64,000 bases of DNA from Ignavibacteriota bacterium (GTDB lineage: Bacteria > Bacteroidota > Ignavibacteria > UBA10030 > CAVZMI01). The notes below the pieces were generated by a model, which saw only the letters and a program-made list of their open reading frames with translations, was not told the DNA's origin and ran no database searches. The stretch spans positions 96,001 to 160,000 of the forward strand of contig CAVZMI010000023.1 of assembly GCA_963776275.1 (NCBI GenBank), written 5' to 3'. Shown one piece after another: positions 24,679 to 59,223 of the stretch; within the stretch, counting starts at the first letter, position 1; each line of letters begins with the position of its first letter. The translations under genes and the position numbers were made by a program.

Positions 24679-25047
24679 GGGGATGTAGTCCCAATCCAAC
24701 ATAACTTACCGAATGAGGTTAGTGGGAAATATTTTCCCTTTCGTTTTTTAAACAGGTACTTTTAGGACGACAATAGAGAAATAAAGAATTTGCCTTAAAA
24801 ATTATAAATTTGTATATTTTATCGAGTTCATTCGGGCGCTTAGTCCCAATCCGACATACTTTACCGAAGGTAAAGTATAGGTCGGATTGAGGCCCCGACT
24901 TTTTTTAGTCGGGGCTCAATCATTGCCCGAAATGTCGAAAAAGCATTTATTTGGGCGCTTAGCTCAGTCCCGTCCCGACATACTTTACTGAAGGTAAAGT
25001 ATGTCGGGACGAGGATCCCGCCCACCGAAGGTGGGGCGGGACTGGTT
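24679..25047 (+). pseudogene. Three tRNA 5'-end fragments, each interrupted by a palindromic insert
   Basis: ggggatgtag at 24679; gggcgcttag[insert]ctca at 24834; gggcgcttagctcag[insert]ctggtt at 24953. The latter two match the 5' end of the intact tRNA-Val. Confidence 0.8.
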
Positions 25048-25093
25048 GGCAATCGATACAATTAATACAGTTCAGCAATTTGGAATGCTTTTT

Positions 25094-25168
25094 GGGCGCT
25101 TAGCTCAGCTGGTTCAGAGCGTACGCCTCACACGCGTAAGGTCGCCGGTTCGATCCCAGCAGCGCCCA
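25094..25168 (+). tRNA. tRNA-Val (anticodon CAC)
   Basis: GGGCGCT/AGCGCCC acceptor stem, TACGC-CT-CAC-AC-GCGTA anticodon arm, GGTTCGATCC T loop. Confidence 0.96.
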
Positions 25169-25870
25169 CTTGTAAATGGTGAATTGTGAGTTGTGAATAG
25201 TGAATGGTTTTGGCTATTTCGATAGCCAGGTGGCCGAGCCTGTGGTGCCCTAAAGGACGACTTCGTCGAGCGAACCCTGAACGTAGTGAAGGGTGAGTCG
25301 AACCACTTGTGGTGAGCTTGTCGAACCATTCTTAACAGCCACCCTTCGATCCGCCTCCGGCGGACTCAGGGCAAGCCCTTCGATGAACTCAGGGCTAGTA
25401 TCGAGGCCACTTGTAAATGGTGAATTGTGAGTTGTGAATAGTGAATGGTTTTGGCTATTTCGATAGCCAGGTGGCCGAGTTAAATTGCCATACAAACAGC
25501 CATATCGAGGCCACTTGTAAATGGTGAATTGTGAGTTGTGAGTGGTGAATGGTTTTGGCTATTTCGATAGCCAGGTGGCCGAGCCTGTGGTGCCCTAAAG
25601 GACGACTTCGTCGAGCGAACCCTGAACGTAGTGAAGGGTGAGTCGAACCACTTGTGGTGAGCTTGTCGAACCATTCTTAACAGCCACCCTTCGATCCGCC
25701 TCCGGCGGACTCAGGGCCAGCCCTTCGATCCGCCTCCGGCGGACTCAGGGCCAGCCCTTCGATCCGCCTCCGGCGGACTCAGGGCCAGCCCTTCGATCCG
25801 CCTCCGGCGGACTCAGGGCTAGTATCGAGGCCACTTGTAAATGGTGAATTGTGAGTTGTGAATGGTGAAT
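25166..25870. repeat. Composite repeat block: four copies of the tRNA 3' flank with GTGAATT-type heptamers, interleaved with REP-like palindromes, including a 4x 34-bp tandem at 25687-25822
   Basis: ccacttgtaaatggtgaattgtgagttgtga at about 25166, 25407, 25511 and 25831; cccttcgatccgcctccggcggactcagggc at 25687, 25721, 25755 and 25789. Confidence 0.92.
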
Positions 25871-25966
25871 GATAAATTTGCTATTCACTTTTCTATGTAC
25901 GTCTTCAGACTAAATCAGACCATTTAGGCAAGATATTAATAAACACCTATCAATAGTTCCGCCATG

Positions 25967-26050
25967 CGACAGCTCTCGTTCGGGCTGCCGTTTGATTATT
26001 AATAAATTATTTCTTACCATTCAGTTGTACCTACAAGAAATATCCGACCA
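25967..26050 (+). repeat. Repeat A copy 1 of 8 (others at 28501, 31502, 35036, 36204, 37263, 46926, 48550)
   Basis: cg(g/a)cagctc..gggctgccgtttgattat hairpin followed by ...caattgt...aagatacatccgac consensus. Confidence 0.85.
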
Positions 26051-26283
26051 AAATGCTGCAATAAAATTATAGATCGACACGCAATTTCAATCAATAGCCT
26101 CTGAAGGATTTAGTACACATTATTTGTGAAATCCAAGGGCGTTGTATACGGATAAAAAACAAGAGCACCGTATGGTATGAGGATCAGTATAATTATATTT
26201 GGGCGGCCCAAACCTCATGATGTATTTCGCCCGCCCATGGAAGAAGATTGAATAATCTACGAGTCTTACATTAGGAGGATACC

Positions 26284-27558
26284 ATGCCAGTAGTATTGCG
26301 GTTTCTCGGGGCAGTATTGGGCGCAATAGTGACGCTGTTTTTTGTTGGGCTGATGACGCCGTTGCTTGTATTGGCGACTCCTTTTTTAAATGCCATCCTT
26401 TTCCCGTTTATCTCAGGGTCGTTGGTTTTGATCTTTTTCAGCTACATCTTCACGTATGCCCTCAGGATTTCAGGTGAGGCTGATCAACCTTGGAGTCAGT
26501 CTGCGCAGATCTATGAAATTGTTTATCTGATAGTATGCACTTGCATCATTCTCCTTACAGTGAGATATATTATCATGGGTCTTCTGTTGAGTGGTTTATC
26601 CACCCTGTTCATCGTCACAATTTTTATATTAATCGGTGCATTAGCATCAATCTTATTCATCGCTCTATATGCGATACCGGTCCTTCTGGGATATATCTTC
26701 GCGGCAATTTTTGCACCCGTTCATGGGGGAATTGAGGATTCGAGGGAATGTTTCTGGCGCGGCGCGTTAATAGGGGGGAATACGGTAATGAATGTTGTGC
26801 TTAGTCTTATTTTCTATGGCTGGCTATTCTCGCCCTACTTAAATAATCCAGTCTCGTTTATAGCAGGAATACCTGCTGTTGTTATAGTGGCCGCAGGAAT
26901 ATTTATCATAATACTCGCGAACTGTCTGACATTGATCCCATCGACGCAGTTTTACCTTCCGGCATCGATCAGAGGTAATGTGCAGGACTTTGTCAAGGCG
27001 TATGCCGGATATGTGTCCTGGTTAATGCCGATGTCATGGGGATACTGTATATTGGGTTGTATACTCTTCTATTTCAGTTGGATCGGTCACCTGATAGCAA
27101 TAATAGTATTAAACAATAGTAACGCAAATTGGTTAATTACTGCTGTACAATATTGGGGAATATCTCGTTTGCTAATAGATCCCCAAACCGGCACGATGGT
27201 CACGGAGAACGGCGGTTGCAGTAATTTTTCATCCCCTGGTTCACCATCTTACCCTTACAGTTGCGGTTGTTTCGCCTTTATTCCAGACAATTTCTCGAGT
27301 CGGTGCTATATAGACAATGCGATACCCCGGCAGCACGAATCCGGTCATGCCCTGAACCTGGCTGCCTTTGGTTCGGTCTATAACATGATTAACGCAATCA
27401 ATGAAGAAGGATTGGATATATTGGGGATTCACGGTTTAGGGCAAAACATTCATGCATACGGCGACCGCACGGCACAAAGTAATGTAGATGACGACTTAAT
27501 CCTAAATGCTTGGGACCCACAAAATAAACACCACCCGGAGGTAGAGATATGGCGATAA
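26284..27558 (+). CDS. Polytopic membrane protein with C-terminal HExxH motif (putative zinc metallopeptidase)
   Basis: AGGAGG RBS; many hydrophobic helices; QHESGHALNLAAFG. Confidence 0.65.
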   Translation: MPVVLRFLGAVLGAIVTLFFVGLMTPLLVLATPFLNAILFPFISGSLVLIFFSYIFTYALRISGEADQPWSQSAQIYEIVYLIVCTCIILLTVRYIIMGLLLSGLSTLFIVTIFILIGALASILFIALYAIPVLLGYIFAAIFAPVHGGIEDSRECFWRGALIGGNTVMNVVLSLIFYGWLFSPYLNNPVSFIAGIPAVVIVAAGIFIIILANCLTLIPSTQFYLPASIRGNVQDFVKAYAGYVSWLMPMSWGYCILGCILFYFSWIGHLIAIIVLNNSNANWLITAVQYWGISRLLIDPQTGTMVTENGGCSNFSSPGSPSYPYSCGCFAFIPDNFSSRCYIDNAIPRQHESGHALNLAAFGSVYNMINAINEEGLDILGIHGLGQNIHAYGDRTAQSNVDDDLILNAWDPQNKHHPEVEIWR

Positions 27559-28328
27559 CAGATGATCTTAAGCAAGACAAGAGTACAGGCGCACGTAAAG
27601 GCGGCCTGTCCACACTACTAGTGATCGCAGCTGCGATCTTTTTCGGACTGATCATCGTGGCGGCTGTGCTCATGCTGCTGCGGCAGGGCAACCCGACCCT
27701 ATTAAATCAGCAGACGATATTTGCACTCCCTGCACTTCCGTCGTTCAACGGTGGAACATTGTTACTCGTGCTCTTGACGATGATCCTTCTCGTTTTCGTG
27801 GGCATCTTTACTTTGCTTCTAATGCTGGTAATTTGTGTTTGCGGCTGCGGCTGCGGGAAGAGACTCCTGGAAATCCTCAAGAAGTTAGGGCTACTTCTAC
27901 CTGACTTGCCTAAGGGTCTGCGAGCGGCCGCGCTTGGGTTCGATGTTGCCGCCCAGGCTGCTCACATTTCCGCGGAATGTCTTGCCGCTATTGGAAACAA
28001 TCTGAGCACGGTCGTAATAAAAACTAACGAATTCCATTTTCCTATTATCCAAATGAACACCATGAAATTATGGGATGCTTTACGTGATCTTAATATCCCG
28101 GGGTTTCCCCCTATTCCACCCCCGCATTGGCATGATCCTGATGTAATTACCTTTAAGCAAGACATAGATACATATCCCTTTTCTAGCTCGGGATCGTTGT
28201 CCACGCCATTGGGTGACATCGCGACCAGAGTTAATATGGCGCGTATTCAGTCCGAGAATTTGGAAACCAAACTAGTCTTAGCAAGAGACGGTTTGAACGC
28301 AGTAGCGCATGTCTTCGATGGCCAGTAG
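27549..28328 (+). CDS. Hypothetical membrane protein with Cys-rich CVCGCGCG motif
   Basis: Overlaps upstream gene by 10 nt; two TM segments. Confidence 0.65.
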   Translation: MAITDDLKQDKSTGARKGGLSTLLVIAAAIFFGLIIVAAVLMLLRQGNPTLLNQQTIFALPALPSFNGGTLLLVLLTMILLVFVGIFTLLLMLVICVCGCGCGKRLLEILKKLGLLLPDLPKGLRAAALGFDVAAQAAHISAECLAAIGNNLSTVVIKTNEFHFPIIQMNTMKLWDALRDLNIPGFPPIPPPHWHDPDVITFKQDIDTYPFSSSGSLSTPLGDIATRVNMARIQSENLETKLVLARDGLNAVAHVFDGQ

Positions 28329-28407
28329 AATAACCATTATTTCTTGCATGGTAGAGAATAAAGGTACGGGCGCGCCGTACCGGTAATAGCGCGCTAATGA
28401 GATAAAG

Positions 28408-28446
28408 AAAAAGCCCTGCATTGCTTGTTGGATGTTGGGCTTTTTT
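28408..28446 (+). terminator. Intrinsic terminator
   Basis: aaaaagccc...gggctttttt stem-loop with T tract. Confidence 0.65.
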
Positions 28447-28637
28447 GTAACCAGGCTAGCATTCACTCTAACAATTATATGAACGCCTCCGCCACCCATT
28501 ACGGCAGCGCTAGTTTTGGCTGCCATTGATTATTACTCAATTTTTCCGTACCATTTCCTGTACCCTTCAAAAGCTCCCGACTTCTTTTTGTGCCGGATAA
28601 GCTAATCATTGAATATTATCTAATCGAGGTATCTTTT

Positions 28638-29516
28638 ATGAAAAAGCCGCTCTTTTCGATTCTCGTTGTGATCATGAATGTCATGTTAATTTCATCACTC
28701 GTTTTTGCCGACGGCGAGACGCGTAAAGCTACTCAGAAGGAAAAAGATTTTTACAGGATGGTGATGGAGACTCTCATCAAAGCATTGCCTGCCGCCGGAC
28801 CCGAAGGATGGCGTGAAGAGAAGAACCAGTTTGCGGAACTCGAATTGGTCACACCAGACTGCGAGAAATATCCGTTCCAGGTTAATTATGGTGCATCGTG
28901 AACCGATGACACCCGGAAGCAGGCAGCCGATGAAGAAATACAAAAAGACCTGGTATCCAAAATGATGAACAATACTTCAAATCCCGAATACATAAAGTTG
29001 ACTGAACAGACCAATATATTGGCTAAAGAGTTAGGTGATGCTGCTGGAAAGAACGATCAACCTACGGTCGAGCGGCTTCAGAAAGAACTGGAGACGAACG
29101 CGAAAAATATACATGCCATCACGGACGCGAATGATAAGGAATCTGACGGCATTATGGAAAAGGCGAGTGCGCACGATGTAAGCATACAGGTCAGTATCCA
29201 GGTGAATGAATTTTCACACCCGCTGTATGAAACTGTGGTCAAGGAGGCACCCGTGGCAGGGGGTCTGACATATCGCTCGCAGGGAGTATGGATAAAGGAC
29301 AATGGATGGCGTGAAGGTACAACGTACGTATTTCTTGGAAAAGGATGGCAGATGAAAACCGATGGTGGAACTTCTATCGAGACTAAAGAACGAAAAGGAA
29401 TTCCTTCAACAGCAGTGCAAACAATTTTTGTTTGAGTCCAGGCAGATCCGGCGCGGGCAAAGCAGGTTCTCGAAAAGATAGATTGGAATGCGTTGAAGAA
29501 GCTGATTCAGAATTAA
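28638..29516 (+). pseudogene. Secreted hypothetical protein interrupted by two in-frame TGA codons (28899, 29433)
   Basis: ORFs 28590..28901 and 28962..29435 share a frame; protein-like sequence continues across both stops to TAA 29516; signal peptide MKKPLFSILVV. Confidence 0.75.
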
Positions 29517-29544
29517 TGGAATTATCTTTAATATAATAAGGAAT

Positions 29545-30359
29545 ATGATCATGAAAAAATTAATGCTTCTTGTCGCACTGTTATTAATATGTTCAATCCC
29601 ATTGCTTGCCCAGGATGCCGAAGGATGTAAAGATCATCCTTTTTTTAGCAGGATGCCGAATTTCTATATTGAATCTTGCAATCAAAATTTTGATAAACTC
29701 GAATATTATGTTTCCGATGGAGTTACAGATACCAAAGAAGGAGATTTAACCAAAATTTCCTATAATTTTCCGGATGATGCCCCAACTAAAGCTCCCAGTC
29801 CATTACAAATTATTAGAAATTATGAAAATGCAATTATTAAATTGGGGGGAAAAAAATATATGTTAATGATCATGATTTAACTTATTCATTAAAAAAGAAT
29901 TCAAAAGAATATATTATCTGTGTAGCAATGAATGGGAATATACAGCATAACCTTAGTGTATTGGAAATTGCACTAATGAAACAAGAAATTACTGCCAATG
30001 AAATGCTTGATGCACTGAATAAAGACGGTTATATAGCGCTGAATATTCTTTTCGAAACAGGCAAATCTACTATTCAAAATGAATCACTTCCAGTAGTAGA
30101 CCAAATATTCGAATTGATGAAAAGTGATTTAACACTTAAAATCAGTATCGAAGGCCATACCGATAATGTGGGCGATGCTGTAAGCAATAAAAAACTCTCT
30201 AATGATCGGGCAAAATCTGTTATGGACGCTCTTATTGCCAAAGGAGTTGACAAGACAAGAATGTCGTTTGTTGGCTGGGGACAAGAAAAACCTGTTGCCG
30301 ATAACAGAAGCGAAGAAGGCAGAGCCAAAAACAGGCGCGTAGAAATAGTTAAAAAATAA
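29545..30359 (+). CDS. OmpA-family peptidoglycan-binding protein with DUF4892-like N-terminus; frameshift in G/A homopolymers near 29843-29856
   Basis: DAEGCKDHPFFSRMP; IEGHTDNVG, LSNDRA, NRRVEIV. Confidence 0.88.
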
Positions 30360-30529
30360 ATCCACAACCGGCATTTTAAAAAATCAACCGGAAGGCAAGG
30401 ATTTCAGAAGGTATAAAAGTCGCATCAATAATCCCGCGGTTCATCCCGTTGTGAGGCGTTAGCTTCGCAACTAAGGGCAGTATTCAGATCCTGAGTCCCT
30501 CTTCATCACAAAAGAAATGGAGTTGAATT

Positions 30530-31405
30530 ATGAAATTGAGAGTTCTTTATCTCTTCATTATTTTTTCTATAATTTCAATTGTGGGTTGGAATTGGAAGAA
30601 AGATTCACCAACAAACGAAGGGAATTCGACACAAGGCAATTTAGTGCCTGTGGCAGGCGGTACATTTACTGCCGGCTCAACTCCCGTCGCAATCAGCAGT
30701 TTTAAGATAGATAAGTATGAAGTGACTTATGAGCTTTGGACAGAGGTGAGAAACTGGGGTTTGGCTCACGGATATACAGATCTTCCTGCCGGACAAAATG
30801 GAGGCAGCTATCCTTCTGGCAACCCCGCTATCAGATCGAACAACCCTGTTACACAGGTGAATTGGTATGATGTTGTAAAGTGGTGTAATGCCCGTTCGGA
30901 AAAAGACGGCTTCACACCAGTATATTACATAGACAATAAACAAAGGACAATATATCGCACCGGAGGAATAGAACTTAATATAGATGCAGTAAAGTGGACA
31001 GCCAGCGGTTATCGGTTACCGACGGAATGCGAGTGGGAGTATGCGGCACGCGGAGGGAACCAAACACATGGCTACATGTATAGCGGCAGTAATGATTTAG
31101 ACGAAGTTGCGTGTCATTTTGACAACTCTGATACTAGCACTCATCCTGTCGGTCAAAAAAAAGCAGACGAACTTGGTATATATGATATGAGCGGAAATGT
31201 CAATGAATGGTGTTGGGACTGGTTCGGTAAAGCATACCCATCGGGAGGCATTACCGATCCGAAGGGTACAAAAGAATTCCCCATTCGGGTGATGCGTGGG
31301 GGTTCATTCGACCTCTACTCGCTCTTCTATCAGGTAGACTTCCGCGACTCCCACTACGCGTGGGCTCGCGGCTTCAACATCGGGTTTCGTTGTGTCAAAA
31401 ACTAA
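30530..31405 (+). CDS. FGE-sulfatase (SUMF1) domain protein
   Basis: KYEVTY, NNPVTQVNWYD, YRLPTECEWEYAARGG, YDMSGNVNEWCWD, IGFRCV. Confidence 0.93.
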   Translation: MKLRVLYLFIIFSIISIVGWNWKKDSPTNEGNSTQGNLVPVAGGTFTAGSTPVAISSFKIDKYEVTYELWTEVRNWGLAHGYTDLPAGQNGGSYPSGNPAIRSNNPVTQVNWYDVVKWCNARSEKDGFTPVYYIDNKQRTIYRTGGIELNIDAVKWTASGYRLPTECEWEYAARGGNQTHGYMYSGSNDLDEVACHFDNSDTSTHPVGQKKADELGIYDMSGNVNEWCWDWFGKAYPSGGITDPKGTKEFPIRVMRGGSFDLYSLFYQVDFRDSHYAWARGFNIGFRCVKN

Positions 31406-31501
31406 ATCTGCACATCTGTTTTTTTACCCTTGTATATCTTCGGATCGATTTACACCATTCAGGTTTCAATTTAACAGAGAATTATCAAGGATCTCACTCT
31501 G

Positions 31502-31638
31502 CGGCAGCTCCTGTTAGGGCTGCCGTTTGATTATTAGTATCTGATTGCTTACTTTCAATTGTTCACCCAAAGATACATCCGACAACCGGTGTTAGATTGA
31601 GTTATAAATATTCAAGCGATATATTAATCAAAACTAAT
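31502..31638 (+). repeat. Repeat A copy 3
   Basis: Near-identical to the 35036 and 48550 copies. Confidence 0.9.
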
Positions 31639-31741
31639 TTGAGCGCGTGTCGCTAACGATGGCTGAGTTGCCAACGACGGTTGGGCAATTCGGGCTAAGT
31701 GAAATCCAATCGGCCCCAGGACTCTTAAAGGAGTTTTAACA

Positions 31742-32258: not shown

Positions 32259-32551
32259 TGACCTGCCCCCAAAGTGATCAAAAGTATATTATGGATCATA
32301 GGGGGCAGCAATTGGTAGTCCGATCCCACAAATGTGGGATCGAGATTTTACCCCGAGTTAATCGAGGGGCTCGTACCGACTTCCCTCGACCCGCCTTCGG
32401 CGGGCTCGGGACAGGTCGTCGGGACGGACTTATTTATCCGCCGTCCTAAAGTCGAAGATCCTGAGCCTGTCGAAGGGGACTGCTATGCTGAGGTTAACCG
32501 CTCTATCCGCTGGAGTGTTATTTACGTAGACGGAGCGCCCATTCGTTATGT
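32259..32551 (+). repeat. IS3-type left-end stub fused to an attC right arm carrying two nested palindromic inserts
   Basis: tgacctgccccc...; ag[32319-32428]ctta[32433-32534]gcgcccattcGTTATGT. Confidence 0.75.
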
Positions 32552-33950: not shown

Positions 33951-34070
33951 CATTTTAAAAAGGAAAGAGTCCCCGCTAAGCGGGATTTCACAAAAAGCGT
34001 TCAACAAGTAAATAGTAATATCCCGATGTATTCGCAGCAAGGATGTTGACAACCGAACGCGACCGGCAGC
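33951..34070 (+). repeat. Repeat D copy 1 (copy 2 at 38101-38219)
   Basis: cattttaaaa(a)ggaaagagtccccgctaagcgggatttcacaaaaagcgttcaacaag...accggcagc, about 120 bp, highly similar copies. Confidence 0.9.
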
Positions 34071-36288: not shown

Positions 36289-37002
36289 CTATAGTTTTTT
36301 CAGATATGACCAGGGCCAATTCTCATAAAAATCGACCAATCCTGCTGAGACAGGATTCATGAGAATATAATCGACGATACGTGATAAATCGTTATCATCT
36401 CTCACTACGTGATCGTAGCTTTCGTTTTGCCAAAAAGCACCATTCCGAATTAGAATGCGGTTTGCCTCACGCGCGGTATAACGTTTCAATGATTGCATTA
36501 TTCGAAATAACGGTGGGCTGTTGTAGGTCGGAATGTCATTCCGACCTACATCGTTTACGGCCGATTCTTCAACTTGATTTGTAGTATTTATTTCAAATAC
36601 CATATGCACATGATTTGGCATGATACAATATGAGAGCAAACCGTATTCTTTCTGATCACGATGATGGATGGATTTTTTCACAATGCTAGCAATTTGCGGA
36701 TCTATCAACCATAGCGGACCTGTTTCGTTTTTATCGAGCAATCTATCGAATCGAGCAAAATAATCATCATTAAATTCCATCCACTCATCCGTTCGGGTTT
36801 TACGATTATCGATTTCTTCGATACGTTTTTTCACCCGTTCACGATCATAGCGCAACTGTTCAATCGCTTCCGCAGGTAAAGACCCTGCTAATCTAAACGT
36901 CACAAAATATGTTGCCTCTGACGGTTGATAGTGCGGGAGGTGGCGGCGATAGTAGAACTTGTCTACCGAGTTAGATTGTAGTGAGTTTATTGTAGTCTTC
37001 AT
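36289..37002 (-). mobile_element. REP-associated tyrosine transposase (RAYT, Y1 HUH family)
   Basis: RRHLPHY...YFVTFRL, IMPNHVH (HUH), WQNESYDHVVRD, YILMNPV; GTAG palindromes at 36522-36550 (intragenic), 37092-37116 and 37129-37154. Confidence 0.92.
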
Positions 37003-37262
37003 AATAATATGTTGGTATATATATTTACCGTGGGAATAGAGGATTCTGTGACAGTGGATTGTGGATAAGCGAGTCAGGTTGTCGCTTTTATGGTCGATTC
37101 GGCGAATCGACCTACATTGTTTACACATTGTAGGTCGGGATGCTATCCCGACCATAAACGGATATGGTCGAATCGGCCCGCCACTACACTCCGGCGCGGG
37201 CACATCCGGCTCGGATTCCCATGGATAAGACCTCTAATCGCTTTATCCGTCTCTCTTTTAAT

Positions 37263-38088: not shown

Positions 38089-38242
38089 GGGCAGCCCAAC
38101 CATTTTAAAAGGAAAGAGTCCCCGCTAAGCGGGATTTCACAAAAAGCGTTCAACAAGTAAATAGTAATCTCCCGATGAATCCGCAACAAGGATATTGACA
38201 ACCGAACACAACCGGCAGCACGCGATGACGGACGGCGAGATT

Positions 38243-46925: not shown

Positions 46926-47235
46926 CGGCAGCTCTAGTTATTAGTTATTATGGTTGCCGTTTGATTATTAGTAGCTGTTTGCTTACTTTCAATTGTTCCT
47001 ACGAAATACATCCGACAACCAGCGTTGTAGTGAGTCATAGATAGAGATTCAGATATTCGAGCAAGATATTAATCACAACTAATCATTGCCGCAGTCCGAT
47101 CCCGCTTATGCGGGATCGAGATCTCGTCCCGACTTCCCTCGACCCGCCTTCGGCGGGCTCGGGACAGGTCGTCGGGACGGACTTATTTATCCGCCGGAGT
47201 GTTATTTACGTAGGCGGAGCGGCCATCCGTTAGGC
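46926..47235 (+). repeat. Repeat A copy 7 plus attC right arm with two nested inserts
   Basis: gccgcag[47095-47181]ctta[47186-47218]gcggccatccGTTAGGC. Confidence 0.85.
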
Positions 47236-52821: not shown

Positions 52822-53012
52822 CCAGCGGCTCAAGCTTACCGGATGAGCGTGAGTACTTTACGCATGGCTTGTGGTGGGTTTCAGTTTTCATTATAACGTT
52901 CTTTATACATCATGACTTTTGTGTAATTAATTATGTTATCAGAATGAATCTGGTTTCGTTTAGTACAATTTGAAAGTTATCAGTGCCGCAGCTTAGCCGT
53001 CATCCTTTAGGC
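52816..53012 (+). other. Complete long attC recombination site (~197 bp)
   Basis: R'' gtataac; left arm cggctCaagct pairs with right arm agcttagccg leaving one extrahelical base; R' tttaggc (G to T relative to GTTAGGC). Confidence 0.82.
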
Positions 53013-53026
53013 GAACCCGGAGGATA

Positions 53027-53503
53027 TTGTACCATATGGATGAGTCATATTTCAACAAACAAGTAACACTAATTCGAACCATCGTCGGCGCTGTTCTGGC
53101 CCTTGCCTCGTTACTTTTCTTATGGAAAGGCATTTCTGGTATAGGTGAGATCGGATTGGATTTCCAATTCTTCAGTGGTAAATTCTCTACGACATCTGCT
53201 GGTTTTGCTTTATTATTTGCTGGAGTGATTCTTCTCTTACCACGTCGGCTTCCACAGGATGGTCGAACTAATGAACGACGTAGTCTTGGTCAAATGGCTA
53301 TCGGAATATTGTTCTATATTTTTATAGGTTTACTTCCAGTCATTGGCTGGATAGGCATTATAATTTATCTACACTATAATAGTCCTGATGATATAAAGAA
53401 TATCTCTGTGTTGGGAGCGTACGCTATAATGAGCGAGGTCCCACTTTTTTTCTGGGTAGTTCAGCAAGTGTCTAAACTTCTTCAAAGCGGGACAAAGAAA
53501 TAA
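53027..53503 (+). CDS. Hypothetical 4-TM membrane protein (cassette)
   Basis: Starts directly after attC with GGAGG RBS; followed by ctaac-type stub at about 53545-53565. Confidence 0.7.
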   Translation: MYHMDESYFNKQVTLIRTIVGAVLALASLLFLWKGISGIGEIGLDFQFFSGKFSTTSAGFALLFAGVILLLPRRLPQDGRTNERRSLGQMAIGILFYIFIGLLPVIGWIGIIIYLHYNSPDDIKNISVLGAYAIMSEVPLFFWVVQQVSKLLQSGTKK

Positions 53504-53578
53504 TAATTCTCAAAATTCAGTCGAACTGGAAACTAATAGTTGCAGTCTAACTAACAGGTGTTCAAGGGAGGCAAAGTC

Positions 53579-54025
53579 ATGGCAGGATATATCTGGCAAT
53601 GCTCGCACTGTAAGCTAAAAGCTTCGTTCCCTGAGATGCAAGCACAAAGAGGCATAGTTACGTTTATCTGGCGTACGCTACTGCCCTCGAATTGGGACCA
53701 CAATCTTCTTGTGCGTGACTGTCTCAAGTGTAAGAGACGAGAGATGAGAATCACATTTGAATTTCCACGACAGCAGGATCCAGAATTGTTACAAATCAAG
53801 CAGATTGTTGGCATCTCTCCCAATGGAGGTGACTATTTGCCAATGATGTGGGAGTCATTTCCAGTTGGTCATATTGATCAAAGCTGGTTTAGTTTCAACT
53901 ACGTCAGACTTGTTGACGGAAAAATGAATTCCTGGGGACTTAACAAAGCCGCAGTATTTGATAGAGATGAATTTCGTAAGATAGTACAGATTTATGAACA
54001 AAGCACTGGCCGCACATTCCAGTGA
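53579..54025 (+). CDS. Hypothetical zinc-finger protein
   Basis: GGAGG RBS; CSHC...CLKC. Confidence 0.65.
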   Translation: MAGYIWQCSHCKLKASFPEMQAQRGIVTFIWRTLLPSNWDHNLLVRDCLKCKRREMRITFEFPRQQDPELLQIKQIVGISPNGGDYLPMMWESFPVGHIDQSWFSFNYVRLVDGKMNSWGLNKAAVFDRDEFRKIVQIYEQSTGRTFQ

Positions 54026-54135
54026 TTTCTATGGTACACTAATTAGTTGCTCATGCTGACGAATGTGGACTGCTGGGTCGCTCATACTACATTAGCAAAA
54101 GTCAAATATATCATTATTTCATATAAGGAGAAAAG

Positions 54136-54624
54136 ATGAGAGCATTTATTAGTTATAGTACAAAAGATCTTGATCTGGTCAACCAGATAGCTAATAGAAT
54201 CAACGGCCTCATCCAAGGTGTGAAATATTGGGACAAATCTAAGGAACCTGGAGAGCATGCTTGGAATAAAATTCACAGTTGGATTGATGAAGCGGATATT
54301 GTTTTTGTGTTGATTACAGGAAACACGGTTGAACGAGGAATATCCGTTGGAATGGAAGTCGGCCGAGCAAAAAAGGCGGATAAGTTAATTATCCCCATCG
54401 TTTCGAAAGATATTCTAAATACAGAGTTAGGTTTCTTATCTGAGATCGCCTACCAGCCCATCGATCTCAAGAATCCCATAGTGGCATTGGATGAAATCGA
54501 AAAAGCGCTCAGAATGAGAGTTGTTGCGAATCAAATGTTAGAGGAACAGAAAAAAAATATTCAGAATATATTCGTAATTATAGCGATCTTATGTATCATT
54601 ATCGCAATACTATCAAAAGAGTAA
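54136..54624 (+). CDS. TIR domain protein with C-terminal TM helix
   Basis: AFISYSTKD, IDEADIVFVLIT, VGMEVGRA (catalytic-type Glu), IIPIV; hydrophobic tail. Confidence 0.82.
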   Translation: MRAFISYSTKDLDLVNQIANRINGLIQGVKYWDKSKEPGEHAWNKIHSWIDEADIVFVLITGNTVERGISVGMEVGRAKKADKLIIPIVSKDILNTELGFLSEIAYQPIDLKNPIVALDEIEKALRMRVVANQMLEEQKKNIQNIFVIIAILCIIIAILSKE

Positions 54625-54698
54625 TATTGCAAACCTTAACAAATCGTGAAACATTCTTAAGGAGAAAAAATGGGCTACTGGATATATGGTTTCTTTCT

Positions 54699-54779
54699 TG
54701 ACCAGCCCCAAAAGTGATCCAAAGTATGTTATGGATCAAAGGAGGTAGCGATGGGCAGTTAAGCGGCCATCCGTTAGGT
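54699..54779 (+). repeat. IS3 left-end stub fused to attC right arm (R' GTTAGGT at 54773)
   Basis: tgaccagccccaaaagtgatccaaagtat...atgggcagttaagcggccatccGTTAGGT. Confidence 0.75.
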
Positions 54780-54883
54780 GTTCAGATGGAATGTTATATT
54801 GAAGAAACACGCATCAAGGTTGTTATGAAGAAACGATATAAACACTAGTTAGACGGCAGCTGCCTGCAATACGAGGCTCACTT

Positions 54884-55810
54884 ATGATTCTTTATAAGTT
54901 TACATCTGCTCAACGTGGTATAGATATTCTTAGTAGTAATTCTATTCGTTTTTCTCAACTTGAGGTGCTTAATGATCCTTTCGAATCCTTCCCACCAGTT
55001 GAAGGTTTCATTACAAGAGAATTCGCATTTAAGATATTCGATTTCGCTTTGAGTAATGAAGATATGTTGAATAGCCTCATCGAGAAATCCCTTAAACGGA
55101 TGTATAACGACCTCTCTTATGCACAGAAAGCTCTCTTGGATTTCTACAATTATAAGATAATTGCTAAAAAGATTGTTGACGCTGAAATAGCAAAGAGGAA
55201 TACCACAATGGTAGACCTTCTTCGAACATTTCTTGAAACGAACTATGAGGCTTTTCTTTCAACAGTGAAACAACAGATTAATGTCTTATTAACAAAAAAC
55301 ATCTGTGTGCTAAGTCTTAGTACTGCAAAATCAAACCATCAAATGTGGTCACATTACGCAGATTCCCACAAAGGCATTGCTATCGGTTTTAATTCGAACG
55401 ATCCTTTTTTCTCTAAAGCCTTAGAAGTCCAATATCGAACCGAAAGACCAAAGATAAATCTCTTCCCAATTCCCGAAGAGGAACAAGAAAAACTAAAGCT
55501 TACAAAAGCCATTATGGCTACAAAGAATATAACTTGGCATTACGAAGAGGAATATAGACTTCTCAATGCAGCTGATTTGCTACAAAAAGATTCCGCGAAT
55601 GATCCGGATGGATTTCCGATCTTTGTGGCATCTTTTCCCGTCCAGTCTGTGCAGCATGTCATTTTCGGATGCAACACACCAGAAAATTATAGGAAAAAAG
55701 TGATCGAAATTGTCGTAGCCAAATACCCCGCCGCCAGATTAAGCGATGCTATCTTGGATACCCAGACTTTTCAAATCAATTTTAAGCCGTTAAATATGAC
55801 TGCGGATTAA
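54884..55810 (+). CDS. DUF2971 domain protein
   Basis: LYKF...LNDPFE, MWSHYADSHKGIAIGF, KNITWHYEEEYR. Confidence 0.88.
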   Translation: MILYKFTSAQRGIDILSSNSIRFSQLEVLNDPFESFPPVEGFITREFAFKIFDFALSNEDMLNSLIEKSLKRMYNDLSYAQKALLDFYNYKIIAKKIVDAEIAKRNTTMVDLLRTFLETNYEAFLSTVKQQINVLLTKNICVLSLSTAKSNHQMWSHYADSHKGIAIGFNSNDPFFSKALEVQYRTERPKINLFPIPEEEQEKLKLTKAIMATKNITWHYEEEYRLLNAADLLQKDSANDPDGFPIFVASFPVQSVQHVIFGCNTPENYRKKVIEIVVAKYPAARLSDAILDTQTFQINFKPLNMTAD

Positions 55811-55940
55811 CCAGTCGTTCCCCGCTTATAAGCATATCAGGGCAAACGTTGTATTAAACTCAGCTCTTCTTGACAATCTCACCGCCTCTTCGTACAATAC
55901 ACGCATGAATTCTTCTCATTAATCAGCAAGGAATCCGACA

Positions 55941-58900
55941 TTGTCTGCCCCCGACACGATACTCCGCCTCATTGACCGGTTCGACCGGAATAAAGATGAA
56001 TATAAAAATCCGGGCTATAACGAAACTCAGCTCCGCCGCGAGTTCCTCGATCCATTCTTCGGAGCACTCGGATGGGATGTGGAAAATAAACAGGGATACG
56101 CCGAAGCGTACAAAGAGGTTGTCCACGAAGACGCCATCAAAGTCGGCAGTGCCACAAAAGCACCTGATTATTCTTTCCGAATAGGCGGCATGCGAAAATT
56201 TTTTGTCGAAGCCAAAAAACCTTACACAAATCTCAAAGAGGATGTAAGTCCGGCCTTCCAGCTACGCCGTTATGCCTGGTCTGCAAAACTACCGTTGAGT
56301 ATTTTGACTGACTTTGAAGAATTCGTCGTTTATGACTGCCGTATTAAGCCAGTTCATACCGATAAATCTTCGACCGCGAGGACATTGTATCTTCCGTACA
56401 CCGATTATGAAAGACAGTGGGATGAGATATACAATATTTTCTCGCATGAAGCGGTTCTCAAAGGTTCGTTCGATAAATATGCCGAGACGAACAGGCTTAA
56501 AAAGGGAACTGCCGAAGTCGATGATGCCTTCCTGAAAGAGATAGAATCGTGGCGCGATACGCTTGCACGTACAATTGCACTGCGCAATACAAAACTCACA
56601 CAGCGTGAATTGAACTTTGCAGTCCAGCGCACAATAGACCGTATTATATTTCTCAGAATCTGTGAAGATCGCGGAGTTGAAACGTACGGCACACTCATGG
56701 CTCTTCAAAACGGCGAGCGGGTTTATAAAAAGCTGTGCGAGATTTTCTATCGTGCCGACGAGAAGTATAACTCCGGACTTTTCCATTTCCAGCAAGAGAA
56801 AGGACGCCCCGAAACCCCGGATGAGCTGACACTTACGCTCGATATCGACGATAAACCGCTAAAAGAAATTATAAAAGGACTTTATTACCCCGATAGTCCG
56901 TACGAGTTCTCTGTTCTACCGGCCGATATACTCGGACAAGTGTACGAACAATTCTTGGGCAAAGTAATTCGCCTTACTGAGGGGCATCGTGCTGTTGTTG
57001 AAGATAAACCAGAAGTGAAAAAAGCCGGTGGTGTATATTACACACCGACGTACATCGTAGAGTATATTGTGAAGAATACGGTGGGGAAACTGCTCGAAGG
57101 TAAAACTCCAAATCAAGTTACTAAACTGCATATACTCGATCCCGCATGCGGTTCAGGTTCATTCCTCATTGGGGCATATCAGCATTTACTCGACTGGCAC
57201 CGTGATTGGTACGTGAAAGATGGAATTGACAAATGGACACAGGGACGCAAGGCCACGCTTTATCAAGGACAGGGGGGCGACTGGCGGCTTACAACTTCGG
57301 AGCGGAAACGTATTCTTCTGAACAATATTTATGGCGTTGATATTGATACTCAGGCAGTTGAAGTGACAAAGCTTTCGCTTCTGCTTAAAGTTTTAGAAGG
57401 AGAAAATGAACAGACGCTGTCATCCCAGCTAAAATTATTCCACGAACGAGCGCTTCCCGATCTTGGTGACAATATCAAATGCGGTAATTCGCTTATCGGT
57501 CCGGATTTTTATGATGGACAACAACTATCTCTCTTAGATGGAGTAGAGCGGCTGCGGATTAACGCATTCGACTGGAATAAAGAATTTGCCGAGATAATGA
57601 AGGGTGGTGGGTTTGATACGGTAATTGGGAATCCGCCATATATACGTATGTTAATAGTAGATAAATCCGAATTAGTTTACATGAGTAATAAATATTCATC
57701 AGCTACCGGCCATTTTGATATTTATGTATTGTTCATAGAGAAAACCAGAATTCTTGTGAAGCATAATGGTCGGGTCGGCATGATAGTTCCATCAAAATTT
57801 TTACAAGCAAATTATGGTCGTGGTCTGAAAGATATCTTATTAAGAGATAAACATTTGGAATCATTTGTTGACTTTAAGGATTATCAAATTTTTAAAAATG
57901 CTTCCACTTATACTTGTGTGCCAATTTTTGATTATTCAAACGCATATGATAATATTACAATTATTACTCCGAAAGATAATAGGTCGGTAGCATTAATCAA
58001 TGATACAAAAAATATCAACGATAACTATTTTCTATATGATTCAGCTCTTGAATCGATTACTTTTAATTTAGGTACATTTCAGAAACAGGAATTAAGAGAC
58101 ATCGAAAATAGATTATCTCACTTGGGAATTACTACACTAGAAGATTGTTGTGAAAAAATCTTTCAAGGTTTAGCGACAACAGCTGATCCGGTATTTACAT
58201 TCGATTTAGTAAAAGAGAAAAAATCAACATATATAGGTTTTTCAAAATCTATAGGTGCTAATTTTGAGGTAGAAAAAAATATCTGCAAGAAATTAGCAAA
58301 AGGGTCAGATATTAAGCGATACCGATTGATCAGCCCGTCAAAATATTTCATCTTCCCATACATCATTGCAAATGATAAAGCAAATGTAATTCAATATGAT
58401 GAAATGAAGAATAATTATCCTCTAGCGTTATCTTATCTTAAAATGAATAAAGATCTGTTGGATAAAAGAGAACATGGGAAAATGATCGTAAGAAAAGATT
58501 GGTACGCCTATTCGCAAGAACATAATCTCAATTATTTTGAAAGAGAAAAAATAATAACGCAAGTATTGGCAAAAAGAGCCTCTTTTACAATTGATAAAGA
58601 AAAGGATATATATTTTGTGGGTGGAGGTAATGCAGGAGGGTATGCTATTGTTCCTAAACGACTAGAGATGATTAAGTACTACCTCGCTTTACTGAATTCT
58701 AGATTGTTTGATTATCTTTTGCAGAGCAGAAGTAGTCGCTTTAGGGGTGGTTACTATTCATATGCACGTAGGTTCATAGGTGTCCTTCCAATACTGGAAA
58801 CACAATCACAGATTCAAGATTCTTTCACCTCACTCGTAGATAAAATAATGGGTCTAAATAGGGAATTCGGGTATTCTAAAAATCCACATGACAATACATT

Positions 58901-59024
58901 TGTCATAAAAGAAATTGATGCGATTGAGAAACAGATTGACACTCTGGTGTACGAGCTTTACGGATTGACTGAGAAAGAGATAAAGATTGTGGAGGGGGAA
59001 GGGCAAAAGATAATTAAAAATTAA
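55941..59024 (+). CDS. Type IIG restriction-modification enzyme (fused nuclease, N6-adenine MTase and TRD; Eco57I/TaqI_C-like)
   Basis: APDYSF...FVEAKK nuclease; GVYYTP, ILDPACGSGSFL, IGNPPY; C-terminal IDTLVYELYGLTEKEIKIVE. Confidence 0.93.
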   Translation: MSAPDTILRLIDRFDRNKDEYKNPGYNETQLRREFLDPFFGALGWDVENKQGYAEAYKEVVHEDAIKVGSATKAPDYSFRIGGMRKFFVEAKKPYTNLKEDVSPAFQLRRYAWSAKLPLSILTDFEEFVVYDCRIKPVHTDKSSTARTLYLPYTDYERQWDEIYNIFSHEAVLKGSFDKYAETNRLKKGTAEVDDAFLKEIESWRDTLARTIALRNTKLTQRELNFAVQRTIDRIIFLRICEDRGVETYGTLMALQNGERVYKKLCEIFYRADEKYNSGLFHFQQEKGRPETPDELTLTLDIDDKPLKEIIKGLYYPDSPYEFSVLPADILGQVYEQFLGKVIRLTEGHRAVVEDKPEVKKAGGVYYTPTYIVEYIVKNTVGKLLEGKTPNQVTKLHILDPACGSGSFLIGAYQHLLDWHRDWYVKDGIDKWTQGRKATLYQGQGGDWRLTTSERKRILLNNIYGVDIDTQAVEVTKLSLLLKVLEGENEQTLSSQLKLFHERALPDLGDNIKCGNSLIGPDFYDGQQLSLLDGVERLRINAFDWNKEFAEIMKGGGFDTVIGNPPYIRMLIVDKSELVYMSNKYSSATGHFDIYVLFIEKTRILVKHNGRVGMIVPSKFLQANYGRGLKDILLRDKHLESFVDFKDYQIFKNASTYTCVPIFDYSNAYDNITIITPKDNRSVALINDTKNINDNYFLYDSALESITFNLGTFQKQELRDIENRLSHLGITTLEDCCEKIFQGLATTADPVFTFDLVKEKKSTYIGFSKSIGANFEVEKNICKKLAKGSDIKRYRLISPSKYFIFPYIIANDKANVIQYDEMKNNYPLALSYLKMNKDLLDKREHGKMIVRKDWYAYSQEHNLNYFEREKIITQVLAKRASFTIDKEKDIYFVGGGNAGGYAIVPKRLEMIKYYLALLNSRLFDYLLQSRSSRFRGGYYSYARRFIGVLPILETQSQIQDSFTSLVDKIMGLNREFGYSKNPHDNTFVIKEIDAIEKQIDTLVYELYGLTEKEIKIVEGEGQKIIKN

Positions 59025-59223
59025 CCCTTCGACTCCCCGCCTACGGCGGGTCGCTCGACGGAGTCGTACTTTAGTGCAGGGCAAGAATTAAAAAGGAAAA
59101 AGAGGAAAGCGGATAAATAAAAGAGCTCGGCGGTAATCGTGCCCCGGCAGTCCCGACGAGAGGAGGGACTCCAGTACTTTAGTGTTTGGGGTGCGTAGAA
59201 TAAATTTAAATGCGTTTTATTTA

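What the first reader, a model, noticed from the sequence alone, without database searches (positions are those of the whole stretch)
24679..59170. Palindromic micro-insertions that land exactly in AG^CT with no target duplication
Seen: deleting a TCC...GGA palindromic segment restores the host sequence precisely at an AGCT tetramer. Examples: tRNA copy gggcgcttagctcag[24968-25041]ctggtt; tRNA copy gggcgcttag[24844-24914, ends gggg]ctca; attC arm gccgcag[47095-47181]ctta; attC arm ggtag[32319-32428]ctta. A fifth insert sits within a REP-like stem, gcag[59151-59168]ctcc, with no empty copy for comparison. Partial cases occur at 24689 and in both D repeats (ag[tccccgctaagcggga]tt). Inserts are 16-110 bp and nest inside one another. 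The two attC cases share sequence and may be one event. Established: Y1/HUH transposases act on folded single-stranded DNA without target duplication, and E. coli TnpA-REP cleaves at CT dinucleotides; AGCT offers CT on both strands. Inference: a non-autonomous, sequence-specific element, possibly mobilised by a RAYT (two are in this window), that prefers hairpin-forming DNA and can inactivate attC sites and tRNA copies.
Basis: partly seen in the sequence, partly recalled or inferred. Interest (0 to 1): 0.8.

Follow-up and report, generated by a model that had tools for sequence, protein, structure and literature searches.

The report
Tiny double-hairpin inserts after AG
Very small two-hairpin DNA elements, found only in one order of uncultured Bacteroidota, have been inserted precisely and without target duplication just after an AG, mostly inside spare copies of tRNA genes, which makes them candidates for some of the smallest mobile elements known in bacteria.

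Summary
The core observation holds. Four of the five named inserts are strong double hairpins. They sit between AG and CT, and removing them restores a known sequence. For 32319-32428 a congeneric genome has the empty site (AAG^CTG). For 24968-25041 removal restores 21 nt of tRNA-Val. The fifth insert (59151-59168) and the "D repeat" cases are not supported.

The tRNA inserts are one element, which I call P-S. P is a conserved bulged hairpin, TCCC-NNY-CCGAC[variable inner hairpin]GTCGG-RNN-GAGGA. S is a second TCC...GGA hairpin. The P pattern occurs in 16 of 151 genomes of the same order and in 0 of 362 sampled outside it. Its free stem positions pair in 69 of 69 cells. Its left flank is AG in 17 of 24 contexts, against a 5% background. 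It lies mostly inside tRNA pseudo-copies, in the sense direction.

The reliable rule is "3' of AG". The CT is frequent but not required. Other hairpin families in this genome use TC^GA or GG^TTCG.

The best reading is a non-autonomous hairpin element moved through single-stranded DNA by an HUH-type enzyme. The link to the window's RAYT-like genes is not supported: no autonomous copy was found and co-occurrence is weak. I rate it a new variant of a known kind (REP/PATE/SDR-like).

The parts
24689..24727 (+). Degenerate P-like hairpin after gggatgtag (possibly an old, decayed insertion)
   Evidence: Direct-repeat family D4 with 24838 and 24962, 66% identity; sequence read; coordinates.
24834..24843 (+). 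Pseudo-copy 1 of the tRNA-Val 5' end (GGGCGCTTAG)
   Evidence: Identical to bases 1-10 of the intact gene. Also present in G001.
24844..24892 (+). P hairpin (variant ending GAGG) inserted at TTAG^CT
   Evidence: G001 carries the same insert with compensatory CC/GG to TT/AA changes and a shorter tip.
24893..24914 (+). Second hairpin CCCCGAC-TTTTTTTA-GTCGGGG
   Evidence: G001 has a roughly 50-nt insert in its loop.
24953..24967 (+). Pseudo-copy 2 of the tRNA-Val 5' end (15 nt), continued by CTGGTT at 25042-25047
   Evidence: 21 nt match the intact tRNA once 24968-25041 is removed. The whole unit is missing from G001. The same junction, GGGCGCTTAGCTCAG|TCCCGTCCC, occurs upstream of tRNA-Val in G037, a different family.
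24968..25015 (+). P hairpin (canonical): TCCC GTC CCGAC [ATACTTTAC..GTAAAGTAT] GTCGG GAC GAGGA, inserted at TCAG^CT
   Evidence: Matches the strict P pattern. Fold z -11.5 together with S.
25016..25041 (+). S hairpin TCCCGCCCACC-GAAG-GTGGGGCGGGA
25094..25169 (+). Intact tRNA-Val(cac), the reference for the 'empty' sequence
   Evidence: ARAGORN; Rfam tRNA 60.6 bits.
32319..32428 (+). X element, a related double hairpin with nested modules. First hairpin 32319-32345; nested module 32385-32410. Inserted at GTAG^CT of a cassette-junction repeat.
   Evidence: Orthologous empty site in G001; fold z -4.2; coordinates.
47095..47181 (+). X element. First hairpin 47095-47121, second 47122-47181, with a nested module at 47138-47163. 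Inserted at GCAG^CT.
   Evidence: Paralogous empty sites. The copy at C4:1284 lacks the nested module.
59151..59168 (+). Doubtful fifth 'insert' in the loop of a REP-like stem
   Evidence: Flanks are AG/CT, but the fold z is -0.07 and no empty copy exists.
36289..37203 (-). RAYT-like Y1 (HUH) transposase gene carrying a REP-like hairpin inside the ORF at 36523-36549
   Evidence: Pfam Y1_Tnp 29.5 bits against a cut-off of 23. NCBIfam REP_Tyr_transpos 77.7 bits against a cut-off of 80. Hairpin located.
59327..59665 (+). Second RAYT-like ORF. It matches only profile positions 43-145 of 146, so it is probably truncated at the N-terminus. GTAG-type REPs flank it at 59236-59248 and 59694-59706 (minus strand).
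25342..25822 (+). 34-nt tandem units CCCTTCGA[TCCGCCTCCGGCGGA]CTCAGGGCNAG downstream of tRNA-Val. One unit has TGAA in place of the 15-nt hairpin.
   Evidence: the repeat finder family D1; coordinates.
33970..33985 (+). 'D repeat' hairpin (second copy at 38119-38134). Terminator-like; not shown to be an insert.

Best explanation
The inserts are copies of very small, non-autonomous double-hairpin elements. The main type, P-S, is 70-110 nt long. P is a conserved three-part hairpin with a bulged A near its foot and a 2-nt bulge below a freely varying inner stem. S is a second hairpin bounded by TCC...GGA. A related type, X, sits in the two cassette-junction repeats.

Shown: these elements are inserted precisely, with no target duplication, directly 3' of an AG, with P always next to the AG. 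They are polymorphic between two congeneric genomes. The same P subfamily occurs at different target sites in different genomes. They are restricted to one order and occur mostly inside tRNA-gene pseudo-copies, in the sense orientation.

Inferred: they move as folded single-stranded DNA, cut and joined in trans by an HUH-type (Y1, IS200/IS605- or RAYT-like) enzyme that recognises the foot of P and a 2-nt target. On this reading tRNA genes are hit because their non-template strand is often single-stranded and folded. Pseudo-copies survive because an intact copy lies beside them. The enzyme has not been identified.
For: Precise insertion with empty sites:
- Orthologous empty site AAG^CTG in G001 for 32319-32428.
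- Paralogous empty sites.
- tRNA-Val is restored over 21 nt.
- The tRNA-Arg(tct) pseudo-copy at C21:225020-225240 matches the gene exactly on both sides of a 93-nt P-S at TAAG^CTGT. G001 has a single intact tRNA-Arg at the orthologous locus.

A defined family:
- The P pattern is found in 16 of 151 genomes of the order, with 0 reversed-pattern control hits.
- It is found in 0 of 400 other genomes in a phylum-wide sample, 362 of them outside the order.
- Among 23 distinct P sequences, the three free stem positions are Watson-Crick in 69 of 69 cells, the bulged A is present in 23 of 23, and the inner hairpins have a median z of -5.5.

Target and polarity:
- The left flank is AG in 17 of 24 contexts and in 13 of 16 genomes, against an AG background of 5.0%.
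- P is always followed by TCC (22) or TCT (2).
- In 14 genome contexts where I read a tRNA, P lies 5' on the tRNA sense strand, although AGCT is palindromic.

Mobility between sites:
- The same inner hairpin (ATACTTTAC..GTAAAGTAT) sits in the tRNA-Val D-loop in G000 and in the tRNA-Gly(tcc) anticodon stem in G002.

Plausibility of an HUH enzyme:
- No target duplication, a short target, hairpins with extrahelical bases and strand polarity are features of IS200/IS605 and REP/RAYT systems (PMC3479197, passages read).
- G000 has 9 Y1_Tnp loci.
- No reverse transcriptase was found in G000 or G103, both of which carry P-S arrays.
Against: - No copy with a gene between P and S was found among the 31 pattern hits.
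- No enrichment of Y1 families was seen. RAYT-like homologues occur in 9 of 16 P-bearing genomes against 46 of 135 others. IS200-like TnpA occurs in 10 of 16 against 78 of 135.
- G094 (98% complete, 3 P copies) has no Y1_Tnp match at all. G002 lacks the RAYT-like protein.
- Repeats flanking the Y1 genes are not P or S.
- E. coli TnpA-REP cuts C^T, not ^CT.
- Several hairpins in tRNA pseudo-copies replace 6-8 nt rather than insert cleanly. Precise transposition does not predict this.
- Copy number is low (1-5 per genome), and a 2-nt target does not by itself explain the restriction to tRNA.
- Three genomes use other left flanks: GAA^ in G061, AGG^ in G094 and AGC^ in G142.
- A strand test against GC skew was inconclusive.
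Confidence: 0.5

Rival explanations
1. Copying by template switching. Replication stalls at the foot of a stem, jumps to another hairpin locus using AG/CT microhomology, copies the hairpin unit and returns. The AG..CT 'target' would then be inherited microhomology and not an enzyme's specificity.
For: Hairpins in tRNA pseudo-copies often replace 6-8 nt that end exactly at stem boundaries: tRNA-Thr, Gly(gcc), Gly(tcc) and Met. In G001 a P-like hairpin joins CTCAG directly to CTGTTGG of tRNA-Gly(tcc), deleting the bases between. Units are bounded by stems. P changed by compensatory double substitutions between two genomes about 95% identical.
Against: P keeps the same foot sequence, bulged A and polarity across 16 genomes of several families. 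This points to recognition by a protein. Right flanks without CT (TT, AA, GC) offer no microhomology. Clean insertions with no lost base are common.
Confidence: 0.15
2. RNA-mediated spread, as proposed for cyanobacterial SDR elements and yeast mitochondrial GC clusters. The hairpins would enter tRNA transcripts and return to DNA by reverse transcription and recombination, which would create the pseudo-copies beside the parent gene.
For: Sense-strand polarity in the 14 tRNA contexts I read. Pseudo-copies lie next to the parent tRNA gene. An RNA route has been discussed for yeast GC42 (PMC4478555, passages read). My recollection of the SDR paper, which is not held, is that it makes the same suggestion.
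Against: No RVT_1 match in G000 (96% complete) or G103 (99%), both of which carry P-S arrays. X elements also sit in non-tRNA repeats. Transcription could not be tested.
Confidence: 0.1
3. Scars of site-specific integrative elements that target tRNA genes. The partial tRNA copies would be att-site duplications and the hairpins would be element ends.
For: Partial tRNA copies flank intact genes as attL/attR remnants do. At C18:99150-99495 an intact tRNA-Leu lies inside an inverted-repeat-bounded insert in the T-loop of a pseudo-copy. G037 has the same tRNA-Val/TCCCGTCCC junction. A variable island lies downstream of tRNA-Val.
Against: The tRNA sequence continues on both sides of the hairpins, so the hairpins interrupt the supposed core. 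Insertion positions differ within one tRNA: G10/C11, G15/C16 and 39/40. No integrase lies next to the arrays examined; ORFs 26284-28328 have no Pfam, PHROG or NCBIfam match.
Confidence: 0.1
4. P-S are functional structured modules, for example processing, termination or protein-binding sites in tRNA operons, kept by selection rather than by mobility.
For: Conserved foot and perfect covariation; restriction to tRNA loci; low copy number.
Against: Present in only 16 of 151 genomes, in a patchy pattern. Host sites differ between genomes and the hosts are truncated pseudo-copies. Presence/absence differs between congeners. No Rfam family matches.
Confidence: 0.08
5. Assembly artefact.
For: The genome is a draft (38 contigs). 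No public contig laid here spans 24861-25090.
Against: The same architecture recurs in 16 separate genome assemblies. G001 shares the 24844 insert.
Confidence: 0.01

Closest known systems
REP / REPIN elements with RAYT (TnpA-REP) transposases, including GTAG-tagged REPs
   Same: Short imperfect hairpins with extrahelical bases. An ..AG motif sits directly 5' of the hairpin foot. There is no target duplication. HUH Y1 genes are present in the genome, and the window has a RAYT-like gene flanked by GGTAGCC+hairpin repeats. Sources: PMC3479197, passages read; PMC3733652, abstract read.
   Different: Here the AG belongs to the target, because empty sites keep it. In REPs, GTAG is part of the repeat. 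Other differences: low copy number (1-5, not hundreds), location inside tRNA-gene copies rather than after ORFs, two unlike hairpins in tandem rather than inverted REP pairs, and no RAYT flanked by P or S. E. coli TnpA-REP cuts C^T.
PATEs (palindrome-associated transposable elements), gene-less derivatives of IS200/IS605
   Same: Non-autonomous, made of a left and a right subterminal hairpin, inserted 3' of a short target with fixed polarity and without duplication. This is the general mechanism as I recall it. PMC3119063 and PMC10055086 were seen only in a search listing.
   Different: No parent IS with P/S ends was found. The target is 2 nt, not 4-5. The hairpin foot abuts the junction directly. 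No enrichment with IS200-like TnpA (10 of 16 against 78 of 135).
SDR elements of Nostoc and related cyanobacteria (Elhai et al. 2008)
   Same: Very small dispersed hairpin repeats with compensatory changes, nested insertions and precise insertion into a short palindromic word. [quoted passage not shown]
   Different: A different phylum, different sequences and larger size (70-110 nt against 21-27 nt). Targets lie inside tRNA-gene copies. The 2008 paper itself is not held, so further comparison rests on recall.
Mitochondrial hairpin elements: yeast GC clusters (GC42), Allomyces double-hairpin elements, sponge RHE
   Same: Small GC-rich hairpin or double-hairpin units that spread within a genome. 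The GC42 target nucleotides are AG (PMC4478555, passages read). One cited title (Weiller 1989) speaks of single elements and tandem arrays.
   Different: GC42 duplicates its AG; here nothing is duplicated. Those elements are organellar, with no tRNA-internal targeting reported in the passages I read. This is an analogy only.
Integron attC sites / gene cassettes
   Same: The two X inserts lie in repeats that end in CCATCCGTTAGGC (the GTTRRRY-like core) between same-strand ORFs. In G142 an X copy lies beside GCCTAAC.
   Different: No inverse core is visible in the G000 repeats, and no integron integrase reaches the cut-off (137.6 bits against 265). The inserts are additions to the repeat, not its normal variable centre, because empty copies exist.

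Membership tests
REP/RAYT system (REPs, REPINs) | A RAYT gene flanked by its cognate REPs | tested here: not met
   Flanks of all 9 Y1_Tnp loci were read. None carries P, S or X. The RAYT-like gene at 59327-59665 is flanked by a different GTAG-type REP.
REP/RAYT system (REPs, REPINs) | A conserved 5' tetranucleotide (GTAG) that is part of the repeat | tested here: not met
   The AG before P is target sequence, because empty sites retain it. The four bases before P vary: CAAG 7, GTAG 3, TCAG 2, and so on.
REP/RAYT system (REPs, REPINs) | High copy number, mostly extragenic after ORFs | tested here: not met
   1-5 strict P matches per genome, mostly inside tRNA pseudo-copies.
IS200/IS605-derived PATE | Insertion 3' of a fixed short target, no target duplication, fixed polarity | tested here: met
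   AG|P|S in 17 of 24 contexts. Exact restoration of host sequence.
IS200/IS605-derived PATE | Ends shared with an autonomous IS that encodes TnpA | tested here: not met
   No gene-bearing P...S copy among the pattern hits. Flanks of Y1 genes are unrelated.
IS200/IS605-derived PATE | Mobilised by a Y1 transposase acting on single-stranded DNA | not testable with these tools
   Only co-occurrence could be examined. It shows no clear association.
Classical MITE | Terminal inverted repeats plus a target-site duplication | tested here: not met
   No duplication at any clean junction.
SDR elements (cyanobacteria) | 21-27 nt units of families SDR1-8, confined to a cyanobacterial subgroup | tested here: not met
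   The host is a Bacteroidota genome (record titles of relatives; T9SS sorting domains). Units are 70-110 nt. Family definitions are recalled; the paper is not held.
Integron attC | Paired R''/R' cores and an integron integrase | tested here: inconclusive
   An R'-like GTTAGGC is present. No R'' is seen in G000. The best TIGR02249 score is 137.6 bits against a cut-off of 265, in a 96%-complete draft.
Known RNA families (Rfam 15) | A match at or near the gathering score | tested here: not met
   Only the tRNA scores in 24500-26200 at E up to 1.

The most novel reading that the evidence does not exclude
P-S is a lineage-specific element that homes to tRNA genes and is handled by an enzyme that is not one of the recognised Y1 transposases. 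Its conserved bulged hairpin would be that enzyme's recognition site. Insertion into the D-loop, anticodon stem or T-loop would be coupled to local duplication of the tRNA segment, and this would build the tandem pseudo-tRNA arrays seen beside many tRNA genes of this order. That would be a new mode of self-restoring micro-integration into essential genes.
Probability: 0.15. Interest if true: 0.85.

Novelty: new variant of a known kind. Interest (0 to 1): 0.62.

Why it matters
How tiny hairpin repeats such as REPs, SDRs and organellar GC clusters spread is still largely unresolved. Most families are too abundant and too decayed for single events to be read.

This family is low in copy number, has sharply defined ends and has exact empty sites, because the tRNA genes supply the uninterrupted sequence. 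Its recognition hairpin is conserved with perfect covariation across an order. Target choice, polarity and structural requirements can therefore be tested directly with short oligonucleotides.

It also shows that duplicated tRNA genes can act as sinks for several different hairpin families. That may explain the pseudo-tRNA arrays that complicate tRNA annotation in these genomes.

Tried and rejected
1. Generic rule "any TCC..GGA hairpin sits in AG^CT". A scan of 321 short hairpins did not rank the AG..CT pair among the 40 commonest flank pairs. I dropped the generic rule and kept it only for the defined P and X families.

2. Self-comparison of the genome for indels. This was noisy. It gave leads to the TC^GA events but no statistics.

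3. Comparison with 1.5 Mb of the 3.6 Mb of G001. Of 147 candidate indels, 46 passed my filter, and only a handful are small hairpins. The 32319 event did not pass the filter because a second indel lies beside it. It was read by hand.

4. Link to Y1 genes. I read the flanks of 9 loci and compared phyletic patterns for two proteins. No convincing link emerged. Kin are not independent, and the strict pattern misses diverged copies; G037, for example, has the junction but no pattern hit.

5. IS91-type Y2 transposase. No match in G000, but the control genomes did not ring either, so this says nothing.

6. Integron integrase. None over the cut-off.

7. Reads. Public runs hold only a G001-like allele of 24600-24860 and the tRNA. 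Nothing was laid on 24861-25090, so the inserts were neither supported nor contradicted by reads.

8. Strand bias against GC skew. Inconclusive.

9. A tenth-base match to GGGCGCTTAG at 3969-3978 is a chance hit in coding sequence.

10. Literature. Searches found no description of hairpin elements inside tRNA-gene copies of Bacteroidota. This covers only the held library. Supplements were not consulted.

Full report
CONTEXT

The window is C23:96001-160000 of a 3.70-Mb draft genome with 38 contigs and 45% G+C. T9SS sorting domains and the titles of related records place it among uncultured Bacteroidota of the Kapaibacteria/Ignavibacteria kind. A congener, G001, is about 94-97% identical in syntenic blocks. 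I fetched 1.5 Mb of its 3.6 Mb for comparison.

THE OBSERVATION

The intact tRNA-Val(cac) lies at 25094-25169. Two partial 5' copies lie upstream.

Removing 24968-25041 joins GGGCGCTTAGCTCAG to CTGGTT. That is 21 nt identical to the gene.

Removing 24844-24914 joins GGGCGCTTAG to CTCA. The right side here is weak: only 4 nt match, and G001 reads CTTG.

The inserts at 47095-47181 and 32319-32428 both precede CTTATTTATCCGCC.

At the orthologue of 32319-32428, G001 has the uninterrupted sequence GTAAG^CTGCCAATTG. Paralogous empty copies read GCGCAG^CTTATTTATCC and GTCGCAG^CTTATTTATCC.

All four inserts fold as two adjacent hairpins far better than shuffled sequence, with z from -4.2 to -11.5. Nesting is real.

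Three claimed cases are not supported. The fifth case, 59151-59168, does not fold (z -0.07) and has no empty copy. The "D repeat" hairpins look like terminators.

WHAT THE tRNA INSERTS ARE

The inserts at 24844, 24968 and 24689 share a first hairpin. Genome-wide the same hairpin, P, precedes a second hairpin, S, at three further places:
- C23:275666, in a tRNA-Val(tac) pseudo-copy at TTAG^CTCA.
- C21:225093, in a tRNA-Arg(tct) pseudo-copy at TAAG^CTGT. The junctions are exact and the insert is 93 nt.
- C23:268093, in a tRNA-Gly(ccc) pseudo-copy at CAAG^CTTG.

A strict pattern for P, TCCCNNYCCGAC-N8-40-GTCGGRNNGRGGA, matches 16 of 151 sampled genomes of the order, with no hit to the reversed control. 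It matches none of 400 other genomes in a phylum-wide sample, 362 of which lie outside the order.

Among 23 distinct P sequences:
- The three positions the pattern leaves free are complementary in 69 of 69 cells, with 2-3 pair types each.
- A bulged A is invariant.
- The inner stems differ widely but fold, with a median z of -5.5.

Rfam has no matching family.

TARGET

P is preceded by AG in 17 of 24 distinct contexts and in 13 of 16 genomes. The AG background is 5.0%, and the binomial p is about 2e-17. The contexts are not independent.

The exceptions cluster by genome: GAA^ in G061, AGG^ in G094 and AGC^ in G142.

P is always followed by TCC or TCT, the start of S.

The base after S is CT at the D-loop sites (GTAG^CTCAG^CTGG) and at the anticodon-stem sites (AAG^CT). 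It is TT, AA, GC, AT or CC elsewhere. AG is therefore the consistent requirement. AGCT is frequent because conserved tRNA positions offer it.

In the 14 genome contexts where I could read a tRNA, P lies 5' on the sense strand. The exceptions are two antisense T-loop sites in G061 and one P-like copy in G001. The tRNA identities in other genomes are my reading against the adjacent intact gene, not ARAGORN calls.

THE X ELEMENT

X has a similar bulged first hairpin, TCCG-NNY-CC..GG-RNN-CGAGA. A pattern search gave 11 hits in 8 of 151 genomes. Two hits are coding sequence, which leaves 9 copies. The left flank is AG in 5 of those 9, among them a tRNA D-loop (TCAG^CTGG, G111) and an attC-like site in G142. 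The copy at 32319 is additional and also follows AG.

In the G000/G001 cassette-junction repeat, the same AGCT carries three different fillings:
- X, at AG^CT.
- A 10-nt TCCTAAAGGA, at AG^CT.
- A pair of TCC..GGA hairpins, at AGC^T.

OTHER HAIRPIN FAMILIES

The genome holds further hairpin families with other targets.
- A 31+15-nt pair sits at TC^GA or TC^AA. C6:30511 is exact against G001. Another copy is in the T-loop of a tRNA-Thr pseudo-copy, and a 15+15-nt pair is in a tRNA-Ser pseudo-copy at GGTC^GAAT.
- A 47-nt hairpin sits in a tRNA-Pro T-loop at TTC^GAAT.
- A "CGGCGA..CGAGCA" pair sits at GG^TTCG in tRNA-Met and tRNA-Lys pseudo-copies.
- Several hairpins replace 6-8 nt of a tRNA arm rather than insert cleanly.

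Tandem arrays of pseudo-tRNA units, with periods of 86-349 nt, lie beside at least six tRNA genes.

RECENT ACTIVITY

- G001 lacks the whole second pseudo-copy with its P-S.
- G001 lacks 32319-32428.
- G001 has one intact tRNA-Arg where G000 has a pseudo-copy with three inserts, an IS481-like gene and then the intact tRNA.
- The same P subfamily occupies different tRNAs in different genera.

MECHANISM

The features seen are:
- precise joining after a short target;
- no duplication;
- fixed polarity;
- hairpins with extrahelical bases;
- preference for DNA that is often single-stranded and folded.

These are the features of HUH Y1 systems (PMC3479197, passages read). G000 has 9 Y1_Tnp loci. The window has two RAYT-like ORFs just under NCBIfam's cut-off.

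The link, however, is not shown:
- No Y1 gene is flanked by P, S or X.
- The phyletic patterns give 9 of 16 against 46 of 135 for the RAYT-like protein, and 10 of 16 against 78 of 135 for an IS200-like TnpA.
- G094 has P but no Y1_Tnp match.
- E. coli TnpA-REP cuts C^T.

No reverse transcriptase was found in G000 or G103, which weakens the RNA route. Template switching remains a serious rival because of the replacement events.

I put the HUH reading at about 0.5. The statement that these are real, precise, family-specific insertions after AG I hold with much higher confidence.

COMPARISON AND NOVELTY

The nearest known kinds are REP/REPIN-RAYT, IS200/IS605 PATEs, cyanobacterial SDRs and mitochondrial GC clusters or double-hairpin elements. 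The elements here fail defining features of REPs (the tag is not part of the element, copy number is low, there is no cognate RAYT), of PATEs (no parent IS) and of MITEs (no target duplication).

They work like a PATE or REP in outline. I rate them a new variant of a known kind. What sets them apart is the conserved P hairpin, the AG rule and the near-exclusive residence inside tRNA-gene copies.

My six literature searches found no description of this in the held library.

Noticed in passing
G000 contigs outside the window: C10:40925-42070, C5:59041-59618, C18:93425-93811, C23:437440-437800, C29:2380-2760, C26:44660-44820: Tandem arrays of tRNA-gene pseudo-copies (periods 349, 252, 86, 147, 152 and 126 nt) lie beside the intact tRNA-Met, Thr, Gly(gcc), Gly(tcc), Met and Lys genes. 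Each unit carries a hairpin in a tRNA loop or in place of a tRNA arm. How the arrays form is unexplained.
   Followed up: partly
G000 C18:99150-99495 (locus L184): An intact tRNA-Leu(taa) gene lies inside an insert bounded by inverted repeats (CCCGCCGTCCCGACAGACG ... CGTCTGTCGGGACAAGCAGGCGGG). The insert splits the T-loop (GTTC^AAGT) of a pseudo-copy of the same tRNA.
   Followed up: no
window 24844-24892 compared with G001 (alignment A1): Between two genomes about 95% identical, the P stem changed CC..GG to TT..AA (two compensatory pairs) and lost 11 nt of its tip. This suggests arm-to-arm correction or replacement by another copy.
   Followed up: no
window 26000-59000: A run of same-strand ORFs, many without any family match, separated by repeats ending CCATCCGTTAGGC. 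It looks like a cassette array but has no integron integrase over the cut-off in this draft. G001 shares it only in patches.
   Followed up: partly
window 36523-36549 (minus strand): A REP-like hairpin, GTAGGTCGGAATGACATTCCGACCTAC, lies inside the open 304-aa RAYT-like ORF and splits its Y1 domain match.
   Followed up: no
window 25342-25822: A 34-nt tandem array of CCCTTCGA[TCCGCCTCCGGCGGA]CTCAGGGCNAG lies downstream of tRNA-Val. Repeated copies of the tRNA's 3' flank occur at 25399, 25503 and 25823.
   Followed up: no
window 55941-59024: A 1027-aa type IIG restriction-modification-like gene with Eco57I, N6_Mtase, MmeI_Mtase and TaqI_C domains.
   Followed up: no
G000 C38:12083-20535: A large CRISPR-like array with about 120 copies of the 30-nt repeat GTTTCAATTCCACTTTGGTCCGATTCAAAC.
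   Followed up: no
G000 C21:225400-226500 (locus L138:1820-2821): An IS481-like transposase gene (204.5 bits against an NCBIfam cut-off of 224) sits between the tRNA-Arg pseudo-copy and the intact tRNA-Arg. It is absent from the G001 locus.
   Followed up: partly
G000 C23:180000-300000: GC skew changes from positive to negative along the contig, as at a replication terminus. A XerC/D-like recombinase gene lies at C23:235729-236553.
   Followed up: no
G037:C1 (locus L005, minus strand 1312-1500): A genome of another family has GGGCGCTTAGCTCAG|TCCCGTCCC about 175 nt upstream of its intact tRNA-Val. This is the same junction as window 24967/24968, although the strict P pattern does not match there.
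   Followed up: partly
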